DNA of 64,000 nucleotides from Parcubacteria bacterium C7867-004 (lineage in GTDB: Bacteria; Patescibacteriota; Minisyncoccia; Phycocordibacterales; Phycocordibacteraceae): NCBI GenBank assembly GCA_001189075.1, contig LFCN01000006.1:588866-652865 (forward strand). Reading direction: 5' to 3'. The notes under the pieces were generated by a model. It was not told the DNA's origin and made no database searches. It saw only the letters and a program-made list of their open reading frames with translations. The position numbers and the translations under genes are program-made. This document shows positions 8,816 to 46,733 of this stretch, in pieces. Numbering within the stretch: position 1 is the first letter of the stretch; every line of letters begins with the position of its first letter.

Positions 8816-9610
8816 TTAGGCTGCGAGCGCCAGACGGCGCCTGCGGACCACGGAGCCGGCGAAGCCGAAGCCCACGATCATCAGGGCCCAGGACGCGGGT
8901 TCGGGGACCGCGCCGCCCGACGGCGCCAGCGACGTCGACAGGTTGTCGTAGTAGACATCCAGGTTGGCGCCAGTGTTGTGGCTGTTCGCGATGAAGTTGG
9001 TGAAGGACATCGTCCCGAAGGCGCTGGACAGCATGGACAGGTTGCCGATGGTGTACTTCAGCTGGTCGCTGCTGGTCAGCAGATCGATAGTCAGCGTCTG
9101 CCAGGTGCCCGCAGCGAAGCCGGCAGGCAGGCCCATGTTGACGTAGCCCGTCGCGTTGTCCCAGCCACTGAAGAAGTTGCTGCCGGCAGCGGCGTCGAAG
9201 AGGGTGAGGATCCCGTAGGAACTCACGTCGCCGTTGACGTCGATGCCGGTGACCCAAGGGCCGGTGATGCGGCGATCGGACGCGCCGTCGAACGCCGGGT
9301 CGATGAACAGATCGATGCTCACCGACTGCGTGCCGGCTTCGAGATCGATCTTGCGACCCTGCGTGTTGTAGAAGCTGCCGGTGCCCTGGAAGTCGGAGCC
9401 CGCGAGCCCGATGTGGAGCGTCGACGAGTGGCCGCCATGGGCGATCCCCGATTCGAAGGTGGCAGGCGCGAACCGGTCAGTGTACCAGACGCCAGGCGCC
9501 TGGGTCGGACCGGTCGTGACGGGACCGTCGAAGTTATAGAAGGTGTCGGCGCTGGCCACGCCAGCGACGAGGAAACCGGCCAGGATGGCCGGAGCAAAGA
9601 AACGATTCAT
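8816..9610 (-). CDS. PEP-CTERM sorting-domain secreted protein (264 aa), paralog of 7935-8633
   Basis: Signal peptide MNRFFAPAILAGFLVAGVASA. C-terminal VPEPASWALMIVGFGFAGSVVRRRRLALAA is a PEP-CTERM motif. Shares a Gly/Thr/Phe-rich body with its neighbour. Confidence 0.8.
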   Translation of the reverse strand: MNRFFAPAILAGFLVAGVASADTFYNFDGPVTTGPTQAPGVWYTDRFAPATFESGIAHGGHSSTLHIGLAGSDFQGTGSFYNTQGRKIDLEAGTQSVSIDLFIDPAFDGASDRRITGPWVTGIDVNGDVSSYGILTLFDAAAGSNFFSGWDNATGYVNMGLPAGFAAGTWQTLTIDLLTSSDQLKYTIGNLSMLSSAFGTMSFTNFIANSHNTGANLDVYYDNLSTSLAPSGGAVPEPASWALMIVGFGFAGSVVRRRRLALAA

Positions 9611-9820: not shown

Positions 9821-10183
9821 ATGCGCTATACTTTCTTCATGAAGCTCATCATTCCCTTCGTGCTCATCGCGCTCGGCCTTGTCGGTCTCTACATCAGCTA
9901 CCAGAGCCAGCGACCTCTTCCGCCTGAACCCGTGGTTACCGAGGAAGCACCAGTAGCTCGGTACATGGACATCGAGTCCTATGTCAGGAATTCAATCTCA
10001 GAACTCTCCCCTATCAAGGAGCAGCTCGGCGGAACGTTCTATGTCACGAAGATTGAAATGAGCGAAGGCATGGGCCTAGTTGAATACGAAGACGGCCACA
10101 ATGCGTATGTGGCCGACTTCACCTATTCAGTAGCAGAAGATGGTAAACCGACCATCCTCACCTTTACGATCCGCCCGGAATAA
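9821..10183 (+). CDS. Hypothetical membrane-anchored protein (120 aa)
   Basis: N-terminal TM helix (LIIPFVLIALGLVGLYISY); no known motif. Confidence 0.45.
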   Translation: MRYTFFMKLIIPFVLIALGLVGLYISYQSQRPLPPEPVVTEEAPVARYMDIESYVRNSISELSPIKEQLGGTFYVTKIEMSEGMGLVEYEDGHNAYVADFTYSVAEDGKPTILTFTIRPE

Positions 10184-10606: not shown

Positions 10607-11023
10607 CTACTTCTTCGCGCATTTCTCGCACCGGCAACCGAAGGGCTTTATGAATTCGTCCACGTATTCCTTTCCGTAGTCGTAGGTTAGCTCGTCACCG
10701 GCCTTGATAGCGCGCGTCGAGAATATGAATACTCGGCCCTTATGAATCTTGCTCTCGCAGTTCCAGCGGCAGGAGTGATTGATGTAGCCTGCCTTATTGA
10801 TCTTCGGCTTCCCGTCGATAGTCTTCGTCTTGCTGATCTCGAAGAGGTAGCGACTCTTGCTCTTGTCGGTCTCTTCCTGCGTGAGTGTTTTACCAACATA
10901 CTCGATGACGCAGACGCCTTTCGGAATCGCTTCCCCGGCGAACAGACCAAGCCCCGCGCTGGAGCGCTTCACGGTAAGTTTCCAATCTCCCGGCACATAC
11001 TTCCCTTTCTTAGCTGGTGACAT
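10607..11023 (-). CDS. SET-domain protein (lysine methyltransferase-like), 138 aa
   Basis: NHSCRWNCE matches the SET NHSCxPNC motif, ELTYDYG matches the ELTxDYG motif, and the C-terminal CRCEKC is a post-SET-like Cys cluster. Confidence 0.75.
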   Translation of the reverse strand: MSPAKKGKYVPGDWKLTVKRSSAGLGLFAGEAIPKGVCVIEYVGKTLTQEETDKSKSRYLFEISKTKTIDGKPKINKAGYINHSCRWNCESKIHKGRVFIFSTRAIKAGDELTYDYGKEYVDEFIKPFGCRCEKCAKK

Positions 11024-23683: not shown

Positions 23684-24358
23684 ATGCGTATCCTCATCGT
23701 AGAAGACGAAGCGAAGCTCGCCGAAGCCTTGAAGCGCGGCCTTGAGAGCAAAGGCTTTGCGGTCGACTGGATCGACGACAGCGAGAAGGCGCGCACGCGC
23801 ATTATGCTCTATCGCGATGAGTACGACCTCATCCTGCTCGACCTCATGCTCCCCGGCATTGACGGCGCGACCATCACGCGCGACGCGCGCGCCGAGGGCG
23901 TGACGACCCCGATCATTGTGCTCACCGCCCGCGACGAGACCGAATACAAGGTCGAGCTGCTCAATATCGGTGCGGACGACTATCTCGCGAAACCTTTCTC
24001 CTTCGAGGAGCTCGTCGCCCGCATCAACGCAGTGCTCCGCCGTCCCGAACAGACCATCCAGACCACGCTCTCGGTCCGCGACATCGAGCTCGATCCTTCG
24101 AGCCGCACCGTGACCAAGGGCGGCAAGCCGCTGGCGCTCACGCTCAAGGAGTATTCCCTCCTCGAGTACTTCATGCGGCATCCGGATGAAGCGATGACGC
24201 GCGAGAGCATCCTCGATCATGTCTGGAGCTTCGACTTCCCTGGCTTTTCGAACGTTCTTGACGTACACATGAAGAATCTTCGTAAGAAGCTCGACACCTA
24301 TGCAGATGCACCCCTCTTTGAAACCGTCCGTGGCGTGGGTTACCGACTTAACCGATAA
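23684..24358 (+). CDS. OmpR-family response regulator
   Basis: Receiver domain ILIVEDE...LILLDLMLPGIDG. Winged-helix C-terminus VRGVGYRL. Confidence 0.9.
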   Translation: MRILIVEDEAKLAEALKRGLESKGFAVDWIDDSEKARTRIMLYRDEYDLILLDLMLPGIDGATITRDARAEGVTTPIIVLTARDETEYKVELLNIGADDYLAKPFSFEELVARINAVLRRPEQTIQTTLSVRDIELDPSSRTVTKGGKPLALTLKEYSLLEYFMRHPDEAMTRESILDHVWSFDFPGFSNVLDVHMKNLRKKLDTYADAPLFETVRGVGYRLNR

Positions 24359-25436
24359 GTACCGCTTCAACCCGTTCATCCGGGCAGCGGTGCATGTCAT
24401 CCTGTTGCAGCTCGCGCTCGGGTTGGTCTCCGTCGTACTCTTCCTCGTTGGTATCCAATACGCACAAGACCAGACTATCGAGTCGATAAGCGTCGGAATA
24501 CAAGAGGCGATGGTCACGGGCGCAACGACGACGCCCACCAACTTTGAGACCATTATAGACGGCATCCGCGCACAGACGGTGACGCTTGCGTTTGTCGGCA
24601 TCGTGCTCCTGAACCTCCTCTTCGGCTTCCTTATCGCCCGTTTTGCGCTCTGGCCGACACGCAATTCCCTCCAGTTCCAGAAGCGCTTCATCGGGAACAT
24701 TGCTCATGAGATACGGACACCGCTCGCCATCATAAAGACAAATACGGAGGTGGCGCTCTTCGATCCGAAGATACCGAAAGATGTGCGCGACACTTTCGAA
24801 GGCACGGTTACCGAACTCGACCGCATCTCGGAGACCATCAACAACCTCCTCTCCTTCGATACCCTTACCCGCCCGCGACGCATGCCGTTCGAACCGACCG
24901 ACCTCGGCGCTATCGTCGAACTCGTTGCGGAGCGGCATCAGGCACTCGCGGATTCCCGGGCAGTGCGACTTGAGACCCGCGTCGGGAAGAGCCGGATGGT
25001 CGAAGGCAACCAGACTGCGCTCGATCAGGTGGTTACCAACCTGGTTAAGAACGCCATTAACTACACGCCGGCGGATAAGGACGGAGTCGTCACTGTCACC
25101 GTCGGTCATGACGGACCGGGGAAGATCCTCCTCTCGGTCGCTGACACCGGCATAGGCATTGGCCAGAAGGATCTCTTCCATATCTTCGAACCCTTCTATC
25201 GCGGAGACACGTCGAGAGCACGCGGTATCGGCACGGGAACCTCGGGACTCGGACTCGCTATCGTGAACGAGATCGTGCGCCTGCATAAAGGCTCCATAAA
25301 CATACGCAGCACGCCGGGCATCGGTACCGAGATACGCATAACGCTTCCCGGCGCCAAAGGGGCGGGACTCAATGATCCGCTCGATAAGAACGAGTCGGAT
25401 ACGACGAACGAAGTATCGCTCGACTTCTCTTCCTAG
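24300..25436 (+). CDS. Sensor histidine kinase, partner of the OmpR regulator
   Basis: Two TM helices. H-box IAHEIRTPLAII. N/G boxes (LVKNAINYT, DTGIGI, GTGLGLAIV). Start codon uncertain; the 5' end overlaps the RR stop. Confidence 0.85.
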   Translation: MQMHPSLKPSVAWVTDLTDKYRFNPFIRAAVHVILLQLALGLVSVVLFLVGIQYAQDQTIESISVGIQEAMVTGATTTPTNFETIIDGIRAQTVTLAFVGIVLLNLLFGFLIARFALWPTRNSLQFQKRFIGNIAHEIRTPLAIIKTNTEVALFDPKIPKDVRDTFEGTVTELDRISETINNLLSFDTLTRPRRMPFEPTDLGAIVELVAERHQALADSRAVRLETRVGKSRMVEGNQTALDQVVTNLVKNAINYTPADKDGVVTVTVGHDGPGKILLSVADTGIGIGQKDLFHIFEPFYRGDTSRARGIGTGTSGLGLAIVNEIVRLHKGSINIRSTPGIGTEIRITLPGAKGAGLNDPLDKNESDTTNEVSLDFSS

Positions 25437-25642: not shown

Positions 25643-25679
25643 GCCGGGGCGCTGAAGGTAAAACCTTCAGCGCCCCGGC
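25643..25679. repeat. Perfect 16-bp-stem hairpin (gccggggcgctgaagg-taaaa-ccttcagcgccccggc) downstream of the HK
   Basis: Perfect inverted repeat with no flanking U-tract on either strand. Possible terminator or protein-binding site. Confidence 0.4.
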
Positions 25680-25699: not shown

Positions 25700-25727
25700 T
25701 TGACTGCATCCCTGACAGGGGTATACT
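25700..25727 (+). promoter_or_regulatory. Near-consensus sigma70-type promoter TTGACT-16-TATACT, directed antisense into the 3' end of the MazF-like gene
   Basis: -35 at 25700-25705 and -10 at 25722-25727. The core TATACTTTcAGTACA recurs at the paralogous toxin locus (45089-45103). Confidence 0.45.
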
Positions 25728-25774
25728 TTCAGTACAAGTGCCTCCGGGCTCGCCTCCTAATGGGGGAGAAAAAG

Positions 25775-25807
25775 AAAAACCGTCAAAGCAAGTCTTTGGC
25801 GGTTTTT
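25775..25807. terminator. Bidirectional Rho-independent terminator (14-bp stem aaaaaccgtcaaag/ctttggcggttttt)
   Basis: The stem includes an A-tract and a T-tract and overlaps the last 9 codons and stop of the minus-strand toxin gene. Confidence 0.6.
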
Positions 25808-26169
25808 CTAACTCTTATAAAGCATTCTTGGTCCAAGAATCCGATTTTGTTTACGAGCCTTTTAGTATCAATTATTCGAATTTGAGACATAAGCGCCACA
25901 GCCTTCTTGCCCTCAACGTGACCTATCGGCAAACGATACCTATGCCGCTTGATAGACGTGGTTAGCGGTATGACGTAGCAAGTCTCGCGACTAATTCCTT
26001 TCAAAATAAGGACCGGACGCTGTTTTCCCTCACCCGTTCCATCCTGTTCAAAACCTATGTTAGTTCCAAGCGAACACCACCACAGTTCTCGCTCATGATA
26101 GAGCTTATTGCGCTCTTCCGAGTGAATTCTTTCTTTCAGGGAGTACCAGGTGGAAAAATCCTTCTCCAT
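25783..26169 (-). CDS. PemK/MazF-family toxin (mRNA-interferase-like) with ~30-aa N-terminal extension; no adjacent antitoxin ORF
   Basis: GFEQDGTG..RPVLIL, IPLTTS and SQIRIIDTKRLVNKIGFLD align to MazF/EndoA (GSEQ.G.RPvlvi...EQIRTIDKQRL). Local GC is ~45%. Confidence 0.75.
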   Translation of the reverse strand: MEKDFSTWYSLKERIHSEERNKLYHERELWWCSLGTNIGFEQDGTGEGKQRPVLILKGISRETCYVIPLTTSIKRHRYRLPIGHVEGKKAVALMSQIRIIDTKRLVNKIGFLDQECFIRVRKTAKDLL

Positions 26170-40957: not shown

Positions 40958-43810
40958 CTACGTACCGAAAAGTTTGAGTAGATCGTCGTACTCGGACGGC
41001 TCGCCTTTGCGCCACTTGCCGCTTATGAGCTCTCGCAGGACCTCATCAAGTGTCCCGGCGAGCTCTGCTCGCGTCTCATCCGTGAGCGCTACCGGGTGCT
41101 CCGTCACTTCTTCCTCGCCAACCTGGATGATGAGAGCGCTATCCGTTTCGTGACCGTTCTCCCGGAGCAGAAGATCGTAGAACGCGAGCTGGCGCTCAAA
41201 CTTCTGCGCATCTTTCTTATCAATAGTCGACGACGTCTTGAAGTCCACGATGCATTCTCCCCGGTCTCCCTTGAAGACCGCATCCACCTTCCCTTTGAGA
41301 ACTATCTCTTTCCCATCGATCGTGCGCTTCACGCTGAACGCCTCCTCGATGGCAATTGCTTCGCGCGTGAGCAATTCGCTACCTAAGTAGGAATCGAGCG
41401 ACGCATGGGCATGGCGTGTGAGCTCATCAAACGTATCGCCTCGCTGGAGCAAGGAACGGGAGAGGGAGCGGGATAGCTCCGCATGCGCCGCGGCAGCGCG
41501 TTCGTCCTCGGCAGCGTCCTTCCGCTTGAGATACGCCGCTATGGCCGCATGCACCGCGTTTCCTACCGCTATCGCCCGGCTCTCCGGCTCACTGAGTCGC
41601 AGTACGCGCTTAGCGAAGAAGGTCGGCGGCGAAGCGAGATATTCGTTATACGCCGACGGCGAGAGGCCGTCATGCTCCAGATAACGGCAGGTAAGCTCGC
41701 GGGCAAGCTCGGGTGCATCAATAACCGTATGCATGAGTGGAATTGGATCAGACTCGACTTCAGCAACACTGAGTCCGGACGGAAGTAATGAGAGCGGCGC
41801 CTGCTCTTTCCCTGCCATGTCGGAGGCGGCATAGGAAAGGACGAGCTCGTTCTTGGCGCGCGTGAGCGCAACATAGAACAGACGGACGAGCTCTTCCTTC
41901 TCGCGCGTCGAGTCGAACATGGACGGCACGAGCGCGCTCTTGCCGCGACCTTCCCATTCGCGGGCGGTGAGCGCGGTTACGAACACGCGTTCGAATTCCA
42001 TACCTTTCGCCTTGTGCGCCGTTATAACCGTCACCTGCCCTTCCCGCTGCGTGAGCGAGGTCTTGATGCTGCCAATCTCGTGCTCACGCGCTTTTGCTAA
42101 GCTGTCCATAATCTCGCCGAAGGTTGCGTTGGGGTCCCGGCGCGTCAGATCCTCGACATGCGCGATAATCTGGCGCACAAGCGGGATGTCTTCGGAAACC
42201 TGTTCGCCTCCTGAAAGGAAGAACGCACGTGCGCCCGAATCCTTGAGAAGATACGAGAGTACGTTAAGCGGTGGAAGGCTTACCACCTGCTCCCGCAGAT
42301 GCGCTATCGTTCCAGCGATACCAGGAAAGGAGACGGCGAGCGCATCCGTAAGCTCGTAGTCCCGATGCTGTCTGAGGAATGTTGCGCGCTCGGCGAGGCT
42401 CGGTTCCCACCACGGCGCAAGCAGCGCTTCCCGCAGGAGCGCGTTCTCGTTCGGATTCGCAATCGCCTGCATGAGCGCGAGCAGGAAGCGGATGCTCGGT
42501 CGCCCGTCGAGGTCGATGTCGCCGGCACGGAGTGTCGGTATCCCGCGAGCACGCAGATGGAGCGCGAAGAGGTCGGCAGTCTTATTCTTGAGCGTTATGA
42601 TCGCTATCTCGTGCGGTGCAACGCCCTCATCTATCGCTTCTTGAACTAGAGTCGCTACCTGGTCCCGCTCAGCGAGTGGGTCCTCGGACTGGAGCAGGTG
42701 CATCTTCCCGCCCGCGCCTCTGAAACCTGAGAGCCTGACATGCTCGCCGCTCGACGAGGGGAGATCCGCCAGCAGTGTATGCGAAAGGTCGAGGATGTCC
42801 TGGTACGAGCGATAGTTTTCGGTGAGCGCTATCACCGTTGTCCGAGGATAGAGTGTAAGGAAGGTCTTGAAATGCGTCGTGTCCGCGCCCTGGAATCCGA
42901 AGACCGCCTGCTTCTCATCACCCACGATGAAGAGGTTCGGGTGCTCGTCGAACGCGAGTGCATCGAGCAAGGCGTGCTGAAGCGCGTTTGCATCCTGGTG
43001 CTCATCGGCGAGCACGTACTGATACTTCTCTTGGAGATCCGCTCGGAGCGCTTCATCCTCCGCGAGTGCGTCGGTCGCAATCCGGAGTACATCGGTATAG
43101 CCGTAGAGTCCTCTCGCCTCCTTCTCTGCGCGATACGTTTCGATAAGCCCTGCCGCTTCCCGTCCTTTCTCCAGACGCTCAATCTTCTTCACGCCTGTCG
43201 GATTAAGCTCCCCGGCAGCGCCTCCTTTCCCGCCACGCACGTAGCGAAGCTTGGGATCGTCTTTCATGCGCTCCTCTTCCTCGTCGAGCCAGCCTTGATA
43301 CTGTTCGATGCTCACGCACTCGCGCGTAAGGGTATCCTCGAGCGATTTCAAATCCTTCAGGTAATGGAAGGGTGACTTCGGTGTACGCAGTTTCGATTGC
43401 TTCAGATTCTCAAGCACGTCCCGCCAGAGCAGCACCTGCTCAACCTCGCCCATAAGCCTGCGATCCGTGTATTCGGAGAACGCTTCGGGATACTCCTTCA
43501 TGATGTGCTCGGCGAAACTGTGGAAGGTGTACGTTCCGACCTTCCTCGCAGCCTCCTCGCCGATGAGTCCTCCGAGACGCTTCGCCACCGTGCGTGCGGC
43601 GGAATCAGTGAACGTGAGTACGAGAATATTCTCAGGAGCCGTGTCCTGCGTCGTCTTTAGAATGTTGGCAATGCGCAGCGTAAGGATGTGGGTCTTTCCG
43701 GTACCCGGGCCCGCGATAACCAAGACCGGACCCTCCACCGTATCCACCGCCTGCTTCTGGGCGGGGTTAAGCTTTGCGTAGGCCTCGTCGAACGCCTTCG
43801 TATCCTTCAT
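40958..43810 (-). CDS. UvrD/PcrA/AddA-type SF1 helicase with C-terminal RecB-family PD-(D/E)xK nuclease domain
   Basis: Walker A AGPGTGKTH. UvrD motifs (TFH, DE..Q, VGDEKQAV.F.GA). C-terminal GECIVDFKTSS nuclease motif. Confidence 0.85.
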   Translation of the reverse strand: MKDTKAFDEAYAKLNPAQKQAVDTVEGPVLVIAGPGTGKTHILTLRIANILKTTQDTAPENILVLTFTDSAARTVAKRLGGLIGEEAARKVGTYTFHSFAEHIMKEYPEAFSEYTDRRLMGEVEQVLLWRDVLENLKQSKLRTPKSPFHYLKDLKSLEDTLTRECVSIEQYQGWLDEEEERMKDDPKLRYVRGGKGGAAGELNPTGVKKIERLEKGREAAGLIETYRAEKEARGLYGYTDVLRIATDALAEDEALRADLQEKYQYVLADEHQDANALQHALLDALAFDEHPNLFIVGDEKQAVFGFQGADTTHFKTFLTLYPRTTVIALTENYRSYQDILDLSHTLLADLPSSSGEHVRLSGFRGAGGKMHLLQSEDPLAERDQVATLVQEAIDEGVAPHEIAIITLKNKTADLFALHLRARGIPTLRAGDIDLDGRPSIRFLLALMQAIANPNENALLREALLAPWWEPSLAERATFLRQHRDYELTDALAVSFPGIAGTIAHLREQVVSLPPLNVLSYLLKDSGARAFFLSGGEQVSEDIPLVRQIIAHVEDLTRRDPNATFGEIMDSLAKAREHEIGSIKTSLTQREGQVTVITAHKAKGMEFERVFVTALTAREWEGRGKSALVPSMFDSTREKEELVRLFYVALTRAKNELVLSYAASDMAGKEQAPLSLLPSGLSVAEVESDPIPLMHTVIDAPELARELTCRYLEHDGLSPSAYNEYLASPPTFFAKRVLRLSEPESRAIAVGNAVHAAIAAYLKRKDAAEDERAAAAHAELSRSLSRSLLQRGDTFDELTRHAHASLDSYLGSELLTREAIAIEEAFSVKRTIDGKEIVLKGKVDAVFKGDRGECIVDFKTSSTIDKKDAQKFERQLAFYDLLLRENGHETDSALIIQVGEEEVTEHPVALTDETRAELAGTLDEVLRELISGKWRKGEPSEYDDLLKLFGT

Positions 43811-44462: not shown

Positions 44463-45026
44463 CTACGTCGAGTACCTCGTTCGGATGATTCTTCTCGCTT
44501 CCTTATGCTTAGGAACGGTCCGGGCGACCAGGTCCCAGAACCTCGCCGAGTGGTTGTGCTCCTTGGTATGGCAGAGCTCATGCACGATGATGTAGTCGGC
44601 GAGCTCGTGCGGAAGGAATGCGATGCGGTAGTTGAAAGAGAGATTGTTCTCCATGGAGCAGCTTCCCCAACGCGTTTTCTGATTCCGTATTGATATCCGT
44701 CCGTACGAGAATCCGTATGCCGTATTGAAATGCGGGAGCCTCTCCGTCACCAGCACCCTTGCTGCTTCCACCGCATCCTTGTACGCCTTCGATCCCCTTC
44801 TCGGTTTCGGAAGCGGTTCGGGAGCGACGCCCTTGTTCCGCTTCTCGAAATACGCTCTCGCCTTCTCAATCCACTCCGATTTGGTCGCCATCCACCGCTC
44901 GACTTCCCGTAGCGAAACGCGCTTCGGTTTCGTTACCACCACCCGCCCATCTGGTTCTACCGTAAGCCGCAGATTCTTCGCCCGCACTGATTCCCGTATC
45001 TCATATTCGATCCCCGACATTCCCAC
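44463..45026 (-). CDS. YgjP/DUF45-family metal-dependent hydrolase (WLM/SprT-like HExxH)
   Basis: HExxH in IIVHELCHTKEHNHSARFW. Size and layout typical of COG1451. Confidence 0.7.
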   Translation of the reverse strand: MGMSGIEYEIRESVRAKNLRLTVEPDGRVVVTKPKRVSLREVERWMATKSEWIEKARAYFEKRNKGVAPEPLPKPRRGSKAYKDAVEAARVLVTERLPHFNTAYGFSYGRISIRNQKTRWGSCSMENNLSFNYRIAFLPHELADYIIVHELCHTKEHNHSARFWDLVARTVPKHKEARRIIRTRYST

Positions 45027-45065
45027 AGTCTACAGTGAGGCTGAAAACAATGCAGATATGATGGA

Positions 45066-45094
45066 TTGATTTCTTATACTTAGACTTATATACT
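45066..45094 (+). promoter_or_regulatory. sigma70-type promoter TTGATT-17-TATACT facing the second MazF-like gene antisense
   Basis: -35 at 45066-45071, -10 at 45089-45094. Followed by TTaAGTACA...CTAATG, conserved with locus 1 (25722-25765). Confidence 0.45.
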
Positions 45095-45170
45095 TTAAGT
45101 ACATTAGGGTGAGAGCTCTAATGACTATGGCTTCGGCCCCGCCCCGCTCGCAAGAGTGGGGCAAACTAGT

Positions 45171-45563
45171 TTACGCAAATAGAATTTGCTTCAGGCGCTT
45201 ACGTAAGCATTCGAAGGTTTCGATATCAAGAATATCGATTCTTCGTATGAGTCGCTTTGCATCTATTAAACGCACTTGCGATAGGTTTGCACATGCTTCC
45301 CGCTTTCCAACCATTCCGAGTGGTAAATAATATTCCCCTTTCTTCATTTTTCCTGTTAGAGCAACTCCAAAAAAGGTATTCCGATTAAATGCTCGAATCA
45401 CTACAATGGGCCTGTCGAAGTTCTTTCCAGTCCCATCTTGTTCGAATCCTATGTTCACGCCGAGAGCACATGACCATATCTCACGCTCTCGATAATGAGG
45501 ATACGTTCCGCGAACGTTCCTGAATTTCTTGCTCTTATTCCACTCATCGAAGTCCTTTTCCAT
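45171..45563 (-). CDS. PemK/MazF-family toxin paralog (130 aa) with the same N-terminal extension; no adjacent antitoxin ORF
   Basis: MEKDF..W...K...........Y.ERE.W.C.LG.NIGFEQDGTG shared with 25783-26169. SQVRLIDAKRLIRRIDILD matches the MazF C-terminal motif. Local GC ~42%. Confidence 0.75.
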   Translation of the reverse strand: MEKDFDEWNKSKKFRNVRGTYPHYREREIWSCALGVNIGFEQDGTGKNFDRPIVVIRAFNRNTFFGVALTGKMKKGEYYLPLGMVGKREACANLSQVRLIDAKRLIRRIDILDIETFECLRKRLKQILFA

Positions 45564-45633
45564 CTCACAAGCTTACAAAAAGGCACATAAAATAAACCTG
45601 GAGAAATCAGCACTATTTCCCTATACTTTAGAT

Positions 45634-46107
45634 ATGAAAACGGAGACCCGCTACTGGCTCATGAAATCCGAGCCGGAGAGCTACAGCATCGGGCACCTGA
45701 AGAAGGACAGGAAGACCGCTTGGAATGGCGTGCGCAACTATCAGGCCCGCAACTTCATGCGCGATATGAAGATAGGCGATCAGATCCTCTTCTATCATTC
45801 CAACTGTAAGGTCATGGGCGTATACGGCGTTGCCAAAGTCGCATCAGCCCCCTACCCCGACCCGACCCAGTTCGATCCCAAGAGTCACTATTTCGATACT
45901 AAAGCGACGAAGGCGAAACCCATTTGGGACCTCGTTGATATTGCCTACGTTTCTATGTTCAAAGAGCCGGTCACCCTCATCGACATCCGCGCGACCCCAT
46001 CGCTCAAATCGATGATTATCCTCCAGACAGGCTCCCGCCTTTCCGTCACTCCTGTCGACCCTGCGCATTTCAATACCATCCTCGCCCTCGCCAAAAGATA
46101 CATGTAA
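45634..46107 (+). CDS. EVE-domain (PUA-like) protein
   Basis: YWLMKSEPESYS...WNGVRNYQARNFMRDMKIGDQILFYHSN is the EVE signature. The track ORF from 45529 is an upstream extension. Confidence 0.8.
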   Translation: MKTETRYWLMKSEPESYSIGHLKKDRKTAWNGVRNYQARNFMRDMKIGDQILFYHSNCKVMGVYGVAKVASAPYPDPTQFDPKSHYFDTKATKAKPIWDLVDIAYVSMFKEPVTLIDIRATPSLKSMIILQTGSRLSVTPVDPAHFNTILALAKRYM

Positions 46108-46130
46108 AAGGCCCGCTCTGCGGGCCTTTT
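46106..46130. terminator. Bidirectional Rho-independent terminator (aaaaggcccgc-tct-gcgggcctttt)
   Basis: Perfect 11-bp stem flanked by A and T tracts, between convergent genes. Confidence 0.7.
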
Positions 46131-46148
46131 ACATACGAGTGTTCGTTG

Positions 46149-46733
46149 CTACTTCTTTTCTCCCTGAAGCTTCTTGATCTTCTCCATGAGTTCCTTGATC
46201 TTCATCTGTGCATTTTCGAGCATCGGACGATCCGTCTTCATAGTAGTAGACGCATTGACCGTAGCGGTTGTGGTTGCGTTTCCGCTCATCTTCGGCTTTT
46301 CGGTGGTAAAGCTGCGGACTTCGGTCGCAGTGATGACACCGGTGGTCTCGTCGATCTTTCCCTTGATCCAGACGCGGGAGCCGACGGTCGGAGTCGCGCT
46401 CCATGCGCCGTTGTTAGTCTTTGCTCCTTCGGTCTTCACGGTAAACGTGTGACCAAAGAGGGACACGGTGAGGGTCGAACCTGAGATCGCCGTTACTTTG
46501 GCGGCATCGAGATCGGCGCGTCCGCCCATGCCGATCATGATGCTCGGTGCACGCTTCTTCATGAGGAGGTCGAACTCCTTGCGAGCCTTCTCCTCGACTT
46601 TCGTACCGCTGCCGTCGGTGGTTAGGGTGATGGTGCCGCTCGTTGAGCCCTGCTCAGCGTAGGCGACTGATCCTGCTCCGAGCGCGACAACAGACGCGAG
46701 GAGGAGCGGGATGATTAGATATCGTGATTTCAT
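46149..46733 (-). CDS. Secreted hypothetical protein (194 aa, Thr/Gly/Lys-rich)
   Basis: Signal peptide MKSRYLIIPLLLASVVALGAGSVAYA; no known motif. Confidence 0.5.
   Translation of the reverse strand: MKSRYLIIPLLLASVVALGAGSVAYAEQGSTSGTITLTTDGSGTKVEEKARKEFDLLMKKRAPSIMIGMGGRADLDAAKVTAISGSTLTVSLFGHTFTVKTEGAKTNNGAWSATPTVGSRVWIKGKIDETTGVITATEVRSFTTEKPKMSGNATTTATVNASTTMKTDRPMLENAQMKIKELMEKIKKLQGEKK

What the first reader, a model, noticed from the sequence alone, without database searches (positions are those of the whole stretch)
45060..45563. Second PemK/MazF-like toxin paralog with the same convergent promoter core (locus 2); the two loci share nucleotide-level conservation outside the coding region
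The 45171-45563 protein shares the unusual N-terminal extension (MEKDF.xW...K.....YxERExWxCxLGxNIGFEQDGTG) and the MazF core with the 25783 protein. About 80 nt beyond its stop, on the opposite strand, lies TTGATT-17-TATACT (45066-45094). It is followed by TTaAGTACAtt...CTAATG, matching TATACTTTcAGTACAag...CTAATG at locus 1. Nucleotide conservation of a non-coding promoter between two diverged paralog loci argues that the element is functional and travels with the toxin cassette. There is no intrinsic terminator before the toxin here, so the antisense transcript would traverse the whole toxin gene or serve as a long leader of the downstream EVE-domain gene at 45634. Local GC is ~42%, consistent with horizontal acquisition.
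Basis: seen in the sequence. Interest (0 to 1): 0.62.

Follow-up and report, generated by a model that had tools for sequence, protein, structure and literature searches.

The report
Conserved small RNA beside MazF-like toxin
The "promoter" beside this toxin gene starts a small hairpin-forming RNA that accompanies this family of MazF-like toxins in well over a hundred genomes and metagenome contigs, with no protein antidote nearby, so the RNA is probably the missing antidote.

Summary
The two MazF/PemK paralogs and the convergent promoter are real. The truly conserved block lies just downstream of it.

The promoter starts a small structured RNA. It has the leader ACAAAUG, hairpin P1 (GGC-UUCG-GCC or GCC-UUCG-GGC), a short linker, a variable GC-rich hairpin P2 (mostly with a GCAA loop) and a purine-rich tail that ends at the toxin's stop codon.

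- Every one of the 78 toxin-selected genome loci that could be assessed carries this RNA, always on the opposite strand.
- Of 80 metagenome loci selected by the RNA motif alone, 68 carry the toxin. Six of the other 12 are cut by contig ends.
- The helices covary strongly.
- Neighbouring genes are unrelated, and no protein antitoxin is present.
- The same layout, with different helix sequences, occurs in Nitratiruptor, Halarcobacter, Sulfurimonas and Rickettsiaceae.
- Rfam 15 has no match, and I found no published description.

Best reading: a two-part cassette in which the small RNA is the antitoxin, most likely by binding the toxin protein (type III-like, but single-copy and separately transcribed). 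A type I-like 3'-end antisense action remains possible. No expression or binding data exist.

The parts
45171..45563 (-). MazF/PemK-family toxin gene, locus 2 (130 aa). It has a roughly 25-residue N-terminal extension and a 5-residue insertion (GTGxNFD) before the catalytic Arg.
   Evidence: Pfam PF02452. 100% identical to the 'PemK-like protein' of Parcubacteria bacterium C7867-004. The closest solved relative is B. subtilis MazF, 4MDX. The Foldseek top hits are all MazF. Arg51 and Thr70, aligned to the RPV and ITA positions of B. subtilis MazF, are invariant in the family.
45066..45094 (+). Sigma-70-type promoter of the small RNA: -35 TTGATT at 45066-45071, 17-nt spacer, -10 TATACT at 45089-45094.
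   Evidence: Consensus scan. Across 146 homologous loci the -10 box sits in a fixed register before the conserved ACAAAUG: T-12 92%, A-11 92%, T-7 95%, G-14 64%, and TTGAC in 112 of 146.
45101..45170 (+). Predicted small RNA of locus 2. The start at A45101 is inferred from the promoter register. The 3' end is uncertain: at or near the toxin stop codon, or read-through.
   Evidence: It folds into three hairpins: -33.7 kcal/mol, z = -4.0 against shuffles, compared with z = -1.2 for the opposite strand. Homology to the family model.
45102..45123 (+). Extra 5' hairpin (CAUUAGGGU-GAGA-GCUCUAAUG), part of an insertion of about 22 nt after the leading ACA that is seen only at this locus.
   Evidence: Fold. 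Absent from all 67 aligned homologues, which read ACA(A/U)AUGGCUUCGG directly.
45124..45167 (+). Conserved RNA core: P1 GGC-UUCG-GCC (45129-45138), linker CC, P2 GCCCCGCUC-GCAA-GAGUGGGGC (45141-45162), tail AAACU.
   Evidence: Covariance model R1, built from 10 other genomes, scores 41 bits, E 2e-11.
45570..45575 (-). Possible -10 box (TAAGCT) 6 nt before the toxin ATG, which would give a leaderless toxin mRNA. Inference only.
   Evidence: Read from the sequence. Many homologous toxin genes have a TAnnnT box 6-9 nt before their ATG.
25783..26169 (-). MazF/PemK-family toxin gene, locus 1 (128 aa; the subfamily that ends ...KDLL).
25700..25727 (+). Promoter of the locus-1 small RNA (TTGACT-16-TATACT).
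25734..25812 (+). Small RNA of locus 1: leader ACAAGUG, P1 GCC-UCCG-GGC (25740-25749), P2 CCUCC-UAAU-GGGGG (25753-25766), an A-rich spacer, then the terminator hairpin.
   Evidence: Fold -36.2 kcal/mol, z = -5.1. Model R1 scores 18.4 bits, E 0.005.
25773..25809 (+). Bidirectional terminator hairpin. Its 5' arm is intergenic. The toxin stop codon (25783-25785) lies within the 5' arm. Its 3' arm is the last toxin codons (K-T-A-K-D).
   Evidence: Fold. In 32 homologues, aligned without gaps, 95.2% of cells pair and 11 of 15 pairs show changes on both sides. There are 46 G-U wobble pairs on the small-RNA strand against 8 on the mRNA strand, p = 1.4e-7.

Best explanation
Locus 2, like locus 1, is a self-contained two-part cassette acquired by horizontal transfer. 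One part is a MazF-fold endoribonuclease toxin with an N-terminal extension. The other is a convergently transcribed small structured RNA driven by its own strong promoter.

The RNA is the antitoxin. It most likely works by binding the toxin protein directly, as a structured decoy whose single-stranded A-rich leader and tail occupy the RNA-binding groove. This is type III-like, but with a single-copy, separately transcribed RNA instead of a repeat array.

Shown here: the RNA gene exists as a conserved promoter-plus-structure unit; it is coupled to the toxin gene in both directions; and no conserved protein partner is present.

Inferred: transcription, toxicity, the antitoxin role and the binding mechanism.
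For: 1. Coupling from toxin to RNA. Of 80 loci fetched by toxin similarity, 69 pass a strict 21-nt fuzzy match and the rest carry variants or are cut off. Model R1 finds a match on the strand opposite the toxin, just 3' of it, in 77 loci (four of them partial or weak). Only L013 (contig end), L053 (run of N) and L068 give none, and L068 carries a compensated variant seen by eye.
2. Coupling from RNA to toxin. Of 80 metagenome loci fetched with the RNA motif alone, 68 encode the toxin on the opposite strand directly downstream. Six are cut by contig ends. The other six are toxin remnants or orphan RNAs that keep promoter and structure. Toxin never without the RNA, and RNA sometimes without the toxin, is the pattern expected of an antitoxin.
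3. Promoter. It is in a fixed register in 146 loci, which places the start at the A of ACAAAUG.
4. Structure. 95.1% of cells pair, against 73% in shuffles and about 55% when partners are slid. There are 149 cells with changes on both sides, against 38.5 expected. The middle pair of P1 is G-C 49, C-G 27, A-U 1, and never unpaired. It flips at least 8 times on a toxin tree. UUCG and GNRA loops read correctly only on the promoter strand, and wobble pairs favour that strand 29:12 and 46:8.
5. No protein partner. 127 of 149 flanking ORFs are singletons and the largest cluster has 4. In several loci the toxin starts 1-8 nt after an unrelated gene. The small ORFs in the window have no Pfam match.
6. 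Toxin probably active. MazF fold and invariant Arg and Thr at the catalytic positions of B. subtilis MazF.
7. For binding rather than antisense. The first 21 nt are nearly invariant across toxins only 45-60% identical. In the locus-1 class this part lies beyond the toxin mRNA's own terminator, so complementarity to the mRNA cannot explain its conservation. There is no cognate-specific pairing site elsewhere in the toxin mRNA (p = 0.48). Orphan RNAs stay intact.
8. Same layout with unrelated helix sequences in a Nitratiruptor plasmid next to its rep gene, and in Halarcobacter, Sulfurimonas, Rickettsiaceae and Gracilibacteria.
Against: - There are no transcript data, so the RNA's existence, ends and abundance are inferred.
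- There are no binding or toxicity data.
- A plain folding-energy comparison of the two strands over P1-P2 is not significant (40 loci against 25, p = 0.12).
- The RNA gene abuts or overlaps the toxin's 3' end in every locus, so an antisense component cannot be excluded.
- At locus 2 the -35 box is weaker (TTGATT), a 22-nt insertion sits in the leader, the linker is CC rather than UC, and no clear terminator follows P2.
- The N-terminal extension could itself regulate the toxin.
- The pair counts were made on an alignment fitted to the model. The P1 pair and the alignment do not depend on such fitting.
Confidence: 0.45

Rival explanations
1. Type I-like antisense control. The small RNA neutralises the toxin by pairing with the 3' end of the toxin mRNA (convergent overlap), which triggers degradation, as in TxpA/RatA or BsrG/SR4 of B. 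subtilis. P1 and P2 would serve as kissing-loop or stability elements.
For: The arrangement is convergent in every locus. In the locus-1 class the RNA's terminator is complementary to the last 8 or so codons plus the stop. In the locus-2 class the whole RNA would be complementary to the toxin's 3' UTR if the mRNA runs that far. Toxin mRNAs are often leaderless, so control through 3' decay rather than ribosome-site blocking would fit.
Against: Cis-antisense pairs are complementary automatically, so pairing does not explain a near-invariant 21-nt leader and P1 across phylum-level divergence. In the locus-1 class, P1 and P2 lie beyond the toxin mRNA's own terminator. Orphan RNAs without any overlapping target keep promoter and structure. 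Known type I toxins are small hydrophobic peptides, not 130-aa RNases (own knowledge).
Confidence: 0.22
2. The RNA is not an antitoxin but a partner of another kind. It could be a preferred substrate, a cofactor or guide, or a sensor that the MazF-like RNase processes. Alternatively the module works mainly by transcriptional interference from the strong convergent promoter.
For: The tight co-occurrence shows a functional link but not its direction. Several loci sit in defence-island contexts: RadC/HsdM, McrB-like, UvrD-like. The promoter is strong and faces the toxin gene.
Against: An active MazF-fold RNase with no inhibitor at all would be hard to maintain. The asymmetry of orphan RNAs and decayed toxins, with no toxin lacking the RNA, fits an antidote. 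Interference alone needs no conserved RNA structure.
Confidence: 0.17
3. One reading: the promoter drives a long antisense transcript across the whole toxin gene, or a long leader for the EVE-domain gene at 45634.
For: No terminator-like site is found on the + strand between 45170 and 45634. P2 at locus 2 is followed by only three U.
Against: The EVE gene has its own -10 box 6 nt before its ATG. Neighbouring genes differ in nearly all homologous loci. Conservation stops at the toxin stop codon. The locus-1 class has a strong terminator there.
Confidence: 0.08
4. The conserved block is only the toxin gene's own 3' UTR or terminator, or a DNA-level site such as a recombination site of a mobile cassette. 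The promoter match would then be incidental.
For: Hairpins directly after a stop codon are usual terminators. The cassette is mobile, with low GC and varied contexts.
Against: The -35 and -10 boxes are conserved in a fixed register in 146 loci. UUCG and GNRA loops and the excess of wobble pairs are on the strand opposite the toxin. In the locus-1 class the toxin's terminator comes before P2 and P1, yet they are conserved. No arrays or flanking repeats were found.
Confidence: 0.05
5. The transcript encodes a small protein antitoxin that starts at the AUG of ACAAAUG (near-leaderless).
For: AUG or GUG occupies that position in 56 of 67 loci. Both window loci have 67-75-codon ORFs from it.
Against: The position is AGG or ACG in 11 loci. 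ORF lengths range from 2 to 144 codons, the frame relative to the toxin varies, and three loci have a stop after two codons. Nothing is conserved beyond the part fixed by RNA structure. The P1 flips change the residues (MASAS against MPSGS). No Pfam match.
Confidence: 0.03

Closest known systems
Type III toxin-antitoxin systems (ToxIN, CptIN, TenpIN)
   Same: An endoribonuclease toxin with no protein antitoxin, and an adjacent gene for a small structured RNA that is the likely inhibitor. ToxN has a Kid/MazF-like fold (own knowledge; reviews PMC8860590 and PMC12283969 were listed but not read).
   Different: The type III antitoxin is an array of tandem repeats upstream of the toxin, co-transcribed with it and cut into units by the toxin. 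Here the RNA is single-copy, lies downstream, is convergent and has its own promoter. No tandem repeats are present. The toxin matches Pfam PemK/MazF, not ToxN/AbiQ.
Type I systems with convergent 3'-overlapping antisense RNAs (TxpA/RatA, BsrG/SR4; own knowledge; general reviews listed)
   Same: A convergent small RNA gene with its own promoter, overlapping the 3' end of the toxin gene. A bidirectional terminator is shared in the locus-1 class.
   Different: Type I toxins are small membrane peptides, whereas this toxin is a 130-aa MazF-fold RNase. The RNA's non-overlapping 5' domain is the most conserved part, which antisense pairing does not explain.
Canonical type II MazEF / PemIK
   Same: Toxin fold, Pfam family, conserved catalytic Arg and Thr positions, and similar size.
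   Different: No MazE/PemI gene upstream or anywhere adjacent in 80 loci. The toxin also has an extra N-terminal helix (low model confidence) and a longer loop before the catalytic Arg.
pemK RNA motif (an Rfam family, named as such in the paper read). From memory, unverified: a structured RNA found upstream of pemK genes in Firmicutes.
   Same: A structured RNA associated with PemK-family genes.
   Different: No Rfam 15 model, pemK included, matches either window locus or canonical loci, even at E <= 10 on short stretches. The position here (downstream, convergent) and the host phyla also differ from what I recall of that motif.

Membership tests
PemK/MazF toxin family (Pfam PF02452) | Profile match above the curated cut-off | tested here: met
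   36.8 and 51.5 bits against a cut-off of 23.1.
PemK/MazF toxin family (Pfam PF02452) | MazF/Kid fold | tested here: met
   AlphaFold2 model with mean pLDDT 75.6 and a core above 85. The top 50 Foldseek PDB hits listed are all MazF/PemK-family toxin structures, probability 1.00.
PemK/MazF toxin family (Pfam PF02452) | Catalytic Arg and Thr/Ser at the positions of B. subtilis MazF Arg25 and Thr48 (residue roles from own knowledge of Simanshu et al. 2013) | tested here: met
   Arg51 and Thr70 are invariant in 22 family members. They align to RPV and ITA of 4MDX.
Type II MazEF/PemIK system | Adjacent, co-transcribed protein antitoxin gene (MazE/PemI), usually upstream | tested here: not met
   There is no conserved flanking ORF in 80 loci: 127 of 149 neighbours are singletons. 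No Pfam match for small ORFs in the window. Only 70 nt lie between the toxin ATG and the divergent EVE gene.
Type III toxin-antitoxin systems | Antitoxin is an array of tandem RNA repeats upstream of the toxin and co-transcribed with it | tested here: not met
   No tandem repeats flank either toxin gene. The RNA is single-copy, downstream and convergent.
Type III toxin-antitoxin systems | Toxin of the ToxN/AbiQ, CptN or TenpN families | tested here: not met
   Only PemK_toxin is matched in Pfam. No PADLOC model is matched.
Type III toxin-antitoxin systems | The RNA binds and inhibits the toxin protein | not testable with these tools
   Needs gel shift or co-purification and a rescue assay.
Type I toxin-antitoxin systems | Antisense RNA complementary to the toxin mRNA | tested here: inconclusive
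   In the locus-1 class the terminator overlaps the last codons. At locus 2 the overlap depends on unknown transcript ends. No trans pairing site was found.
Type I toxin-antitoxin systems | Small hydrophobic peptide toxin | tested here: not met
   The toxin is a 130-aa soluble MazF-fold protein.
Any Rfam 15 RNA family, including the pemK motif | Covariance-model match | tested here: not met
   No hit at gathering score in the window. No relevant hit at E <= 1 in six loci, nor at E <= 10 on short stretches.

The most novel reading that the evidence does not exclude
This is an undescribed class of toxin-antitoxin or defence module. In it a MazF-fold RNase is held in check not by MazE but by a dedicated, single-copy, independently transcribed two-hairpin small RNA that binds the protein. 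The module is very common in Patescibacteria (CPR). It also occurs in Campylobacterota, including on a plasmid, and in Rickettsiales. The RNA is a new family absent from Rfam.
Probability: 0.45. Interest if true: 0.85.

Novelty: new variant of a known kind. Interest (0 to 1): 0.74.

Why it matters
MazF toxins are the textbook type II toxins, and their antidote is always described as the MazE protein.

- **Blurred boundaries.** A large MazF subfamily has at least 1,757 clusters at 50% identity with E <= 1e-10. If its partner is a small RNA, that blurs the boundary between type I, II and III systems.
- **Reannotation.** It would explain hundreds of apparently solitary "type II toxin" annotations in CPR genomes.
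- **A new RNA family.** It would add a compact, highly conserved RNA family to organisms whose non-coding RNAs are almost unknown.
- **Testability.** The idea can be tested directly in E. coli, or in cultivated Halarcobacter, Sulfurimonas or Nitratiruptor.

Tried and rejected
- **Pairwise MAFFT of the two intergenic regions.** It did not align the promoters, but it pointed to the GGCTTCGGCC block.
- **Rfam at gathering score and at lax E-values.** Nothing relevant.
- **tRNA/tmRNA scan.** None.
- **Peptide-coding reading of the RNA.** Rejected.
- **Strand test by folding energy of P1-P2.** Not significant. Wobble-pair counts and loop types were used instead.
- **My own simple terminator finder.** Too crude, because A/U tracts merge into the stem. 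It did not settle where the locus-2-class RNA ends.
- **Search for a conserved trans pairing site in the toxin mRNA.** None.
- **Viral contigs and phage records.** No relatives.
- **NCBIfam and PADLOC.** No specific family.
- **Model R1 on the Nitratiruptor plasmid.** No hit, although the same layout is visible by eye.
- **Literature searches.** No description was found. The supplement of Weinberg et al. 2017, which describes the pemK motif, is not held.
- Failed because of a malformed search term.

Full report
**What is in the window.** The window comes from Parcubacteria bacterium C7867-004. The locus-2 protein is 100% identical to its "PemK-like protein".

The ORF at 45171-45563(-) has 130 residues and the ORF at 25783-26169(-) has 128. 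They are 44% identical. Both match Pfam PemK_toxin above the cut-off.

A profile of the family finds B. subtilis MazF (4MDX, 1NE8, 4ME7) as the nearest solved relative. An AlphaFold2 model (mean pLDDT 75.6) gives only MazF structures as its top Foldseek hits. Arg51 and Thr70 align with the catalytic Arg and Thr positions of B. subtilis MazF and are invariant in the family. The enzyme is therefore probably active.

The roughly 25-residue N-terminal extension is modelled as a helix, but with low confidence.

Locus 2 lies between a YgjP-like metallopeptidase gene (44463-45026, -) and an EVE-domain gene (45634-46107, +). Only 70 nt separate the toxin ATG from the EVE ATG. No antitoxin-like ORF is present.

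**Check of the observation.** TTGATT-17-TATACT is at 45066-45094(+) and TTGACT-16-TATACT is at 25700-25727(+). TATACTTTNAGTACA occurs at just these two places.

However, TATACTTT also sits 6 nt before the ATG of the EVE gene and of a gene at 9827. Most of the listed identity is therefore this organism's ordinary -10 box, here used for leaderless mRNAs.

The CTAATG match is coincidental. At locus 1 it belongs to the loop and stem of a hairpin. At locus 2 it belongs to the 3' arm of a different hairpin.

GC of the cassette is 43%, against 54-57% in the flanks.

**What the promoter drives.** Both + strand segments fold far better than shuffled controls (z = -4.0 and -5.1). The opposite strands fold less well (z = -1.2 and -2.3).

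I fetched 80 loci from GTDB species genomes by toxin similarity. In nearly every locus, the reverse complement of the DNA just after the toxin stop codon shows the following:
- a near-consensus promoter;
- about 7 nt later, ACAAAUG;
- hairpin P1, either GGC-UUCG-GCC or GCC-UUCG-GGC;
- the linker UC;
- a GC-rich hairpin P2 of 4-11 pairs, mostly with a GCAA loop;
- a purine-rich tail, followed directly by the toxin's stop codon.

A 16-nt degenerate pattern matches exactly once in each of 55 loci. All but two of these matches lie directly 3' of the toxin, on the opposite strand; the other two (L025, L070) lie about 220-250 nt further downstream.

A covariance model built from ten of these loci finds a match at that place in 77 loci, four of them partial or weak. 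It also finds both window loci: 45124-45167, 41 bits, E 2e-11; and 25734-25772, 18.4 bits, E 0.005. There is no third full copy in the window.

The three loci without a hit are a contig end (L013), a run of N (L053), and L068. L068 carries a compensated variant with P1 = UCC-UUCG-GGA.

Locus 2 differs from all the others by an insertion of about 22 nt after the leading ACA, which forms an extra hairpin with 45102-45123.

**Evidence that it is an RNA on that strand.**
- **Promoter register.** Over 146 loci the -10 box is in a fixed register before ACAAAUG: T-12 92%, A-11 92%, T-7 95%. It has an extended-type TG (G-14 64%), and TTGAC is present in 112 of 146.
- **Pairing.** On the model-fitted alignment 95.1% of cells pair, against 73% in shuffles and about 55% with partners slid. 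There are 149 double-sided changes against 38.5 expected.
- **P1 covariation.** The middle pair of P1 does not depend on how the alignment was made. It is G-C in 49 sequences, C-G in 27, A-U in 1, and never unpaired. It flips at least eight times on a toxin tree.
- **Loops and wobble pairs.** The loops are UUCG and GNRA only when read on the promoter strand. Wobble pairs favour that strand 29 to 12.
- **One negative.** A plain energy comparison of the two strands was not significant.

**Two classes of 3' end.** In the 128-residue class (locus 1), an A-rich spacer follows P2. Then comes a 13-16-pair hairpin whose 5' arm is intergenic and contains the stop codon. Its 3' arm is the last toxin codons.

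In a gap-free alignment of 32 loci, 95.2% of cells pair and 11 of 15 pairs show changes on both sides. There are 46 wobble pairs valid on the small-RNA strand against 8 valid on the mRNA strand (p = 1.4e-7). This is a bidirectional terminator tuned to the small RNA.

In the 130-residue class (locus 2), P2 is followed by CAAA, 2-4 further nucleotides, a short U run, and then the stop codon. Where this RNA ends is unresolved.

**Coupling, and the absence of a protein partner.** Flanking genes are unrelated from locus to locus: 127 of 149 are singletons. In several loci the toxin starts within 8 nt of an unrelated upstream gene.

I then searched metagenomes with the RNA motif alone, which gave more than 120 stretches, of which 80 were read. 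Of these, 68 have the toxin on the opposite strand directly downstream, and six are cut by contig ends. The remaining six are:
- truncated toxin remnants (L132, L160);
- orphan RNAs with an intact promoter and helices (L118, L126);
- a remnant next to an unrelated PIN-type pair (L092/L109).

The toxin is never seen without the RNA, while the RNA is sometimes seen without the toxin. This is the asymmetry expected of an antidote.

**Beyond CPR.** A Nitratiruptor plasmid carries a 40%-identical toxin next to its replication gene. Relatives also occur in Halarcobacter, Sulfurimonas, a Rickettsiaceae MAG and a Gracilibacteria MAG.

All five loci show the same layout on the opposite strand. They have TTGnnn-17-TATAAT, a leader A(C/U)AA(A/U)U, two hairpins and a purine-rich tail that ends at the stop codon. 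Their helix sequences are entirely different.

Their contexts are typical of defence islands or plain insertion sites: between RadC and HsdM, between a McrB-like gene and UvrD, and inside a leu operon.

The family has 2,750 clusters at 50% identity with E <= 1e-3 and 1,757 with E <= 1e-10.

**Mechanism.** I favour direct inhibition of the toxin protein by the RNA, for four reasons:
- The most conserved part is the 21-nt leader plus P1. It is nearly invariant among toxins that are only 45-60% identical.
- In the locus-1 class this part lies beyond the toxin mRNA's own terminator, so antisense pairing cannot explain its conservation.
- No cognate-specific pairing site exists elsewhere in the toxin mRNA.
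- Orphan copies remain intact.

A type I-like action through the 3' overlap remains possible and could act alongside binding. The peptide reading is rejected. So are the 3'-UTR-only reading and the EVE-leader reading, for the reasons given under the rival explanations. None of the mechanistic steps has experimental support here.

**Comparison with known systems, and novelty.** The toxin is a member of the MazF/PemK family. The system fails the defining features of each known type:
- **Type II:** no MazE.
- **Type III:** no repeat array and no ToxN-type toxin.
- **Type I:** the toxin is not a small peptide.

No Rfam 15 family, the pemK motif included, matches. Nine literature searches found no description. 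That library is incomplete, so prior description cannot be excluded.

I class the system as a new variant of a known kind: an RNA-antitoxin module built on a MazF toxin.

Noticed in passing
window 45622-45636, 9827-9842 and 45564-45575(-): TATACT (or a TAnnnT box) lies exactly 6 nt before the ATG of the EVE gene, of a small membrane-protein gene and of the toxin gene itself. This suggests that leaderless mRNAs are common in this organism. Many homologous toxin genes show the same feature.
   Followed up: partly
window 44463-45026(-), 45634-46107(+), 40958-43810(-): Locus 2 is flanked by a YgjP-like metallopeptidase gene and an EVE-domain gene, with a 950-aa UvrD-like helicase/nuclease gene 1.3 kb away. 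The cassette also abuts UvrD-like genes in Sulfurimonas and Gracilibacteria, and restriction-type genes in Halarcobacter. This may be a defence-island context or a coincidence.
   Followed up: no
L118, L126, L132, L160, L092/L109 (metagenome loci): L118 and L126 are orphan small-RNA copies with an intact promoter and helices but no toxin. L132 and L160 keep the RNA next to a truncated toxin. L092/L109 holds a remnant next to a PIN/UPF0175-type pair.
   Followed up: partly
L070 3603-3642(-), L076 2009-2048(-), L046 about 200 nt beyond the first copy: These are second small-RNA-like copies near the first one, without a second toxin gene. They may be remains of tandem cassettes or spare antidotes.
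   Followed up: no
window 25643-25679: A strong 15-pair hairpin (CCGGGGCGCUGAAGG / CCUUCAGCGCCCCGG) lies just upstream of the locus-1 small-RNA promoter. It probably terminates the histidine-kinase gene 24300-25436 and insulates the RNA promoter. The terminator scan did not list it.
   Followed up: no
window 8816-9610(-): This ORF ends in VPEPASWALMIVGFGFAGSVVRRRR, which looks like a PEP-CTERM-type sorting signal. That would be unexpected in a Parcubacteria genome. Seen only in the ORF list.
   Followed up: no
window 10607-11023(-): This 138-aa ORF has motifs reminiscent of a SET domain (…NHSC…, …ELTYDY…). Read by eye and not tested.
   Followed up: no
window 46100-46136: A 17-pair hairpin lies between the convergent EVE gene and the gene at 46149-46733. 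It is probably a bidirectional terminator.
   Followed up: no
L202 1-373(+) (Halarcobacter): A second, longer PemK-domain gene (175 aa called) lies two genes upstream of the family member, with a RadC gene between them.
   Followed up: no
small-RNA position +5 to +7 in 67 loci: AUG or GUG occupies this position in 56 of 67 loci, even though the peptide reading fails. The reason for this preference is unexplained.
   Followed up: partly
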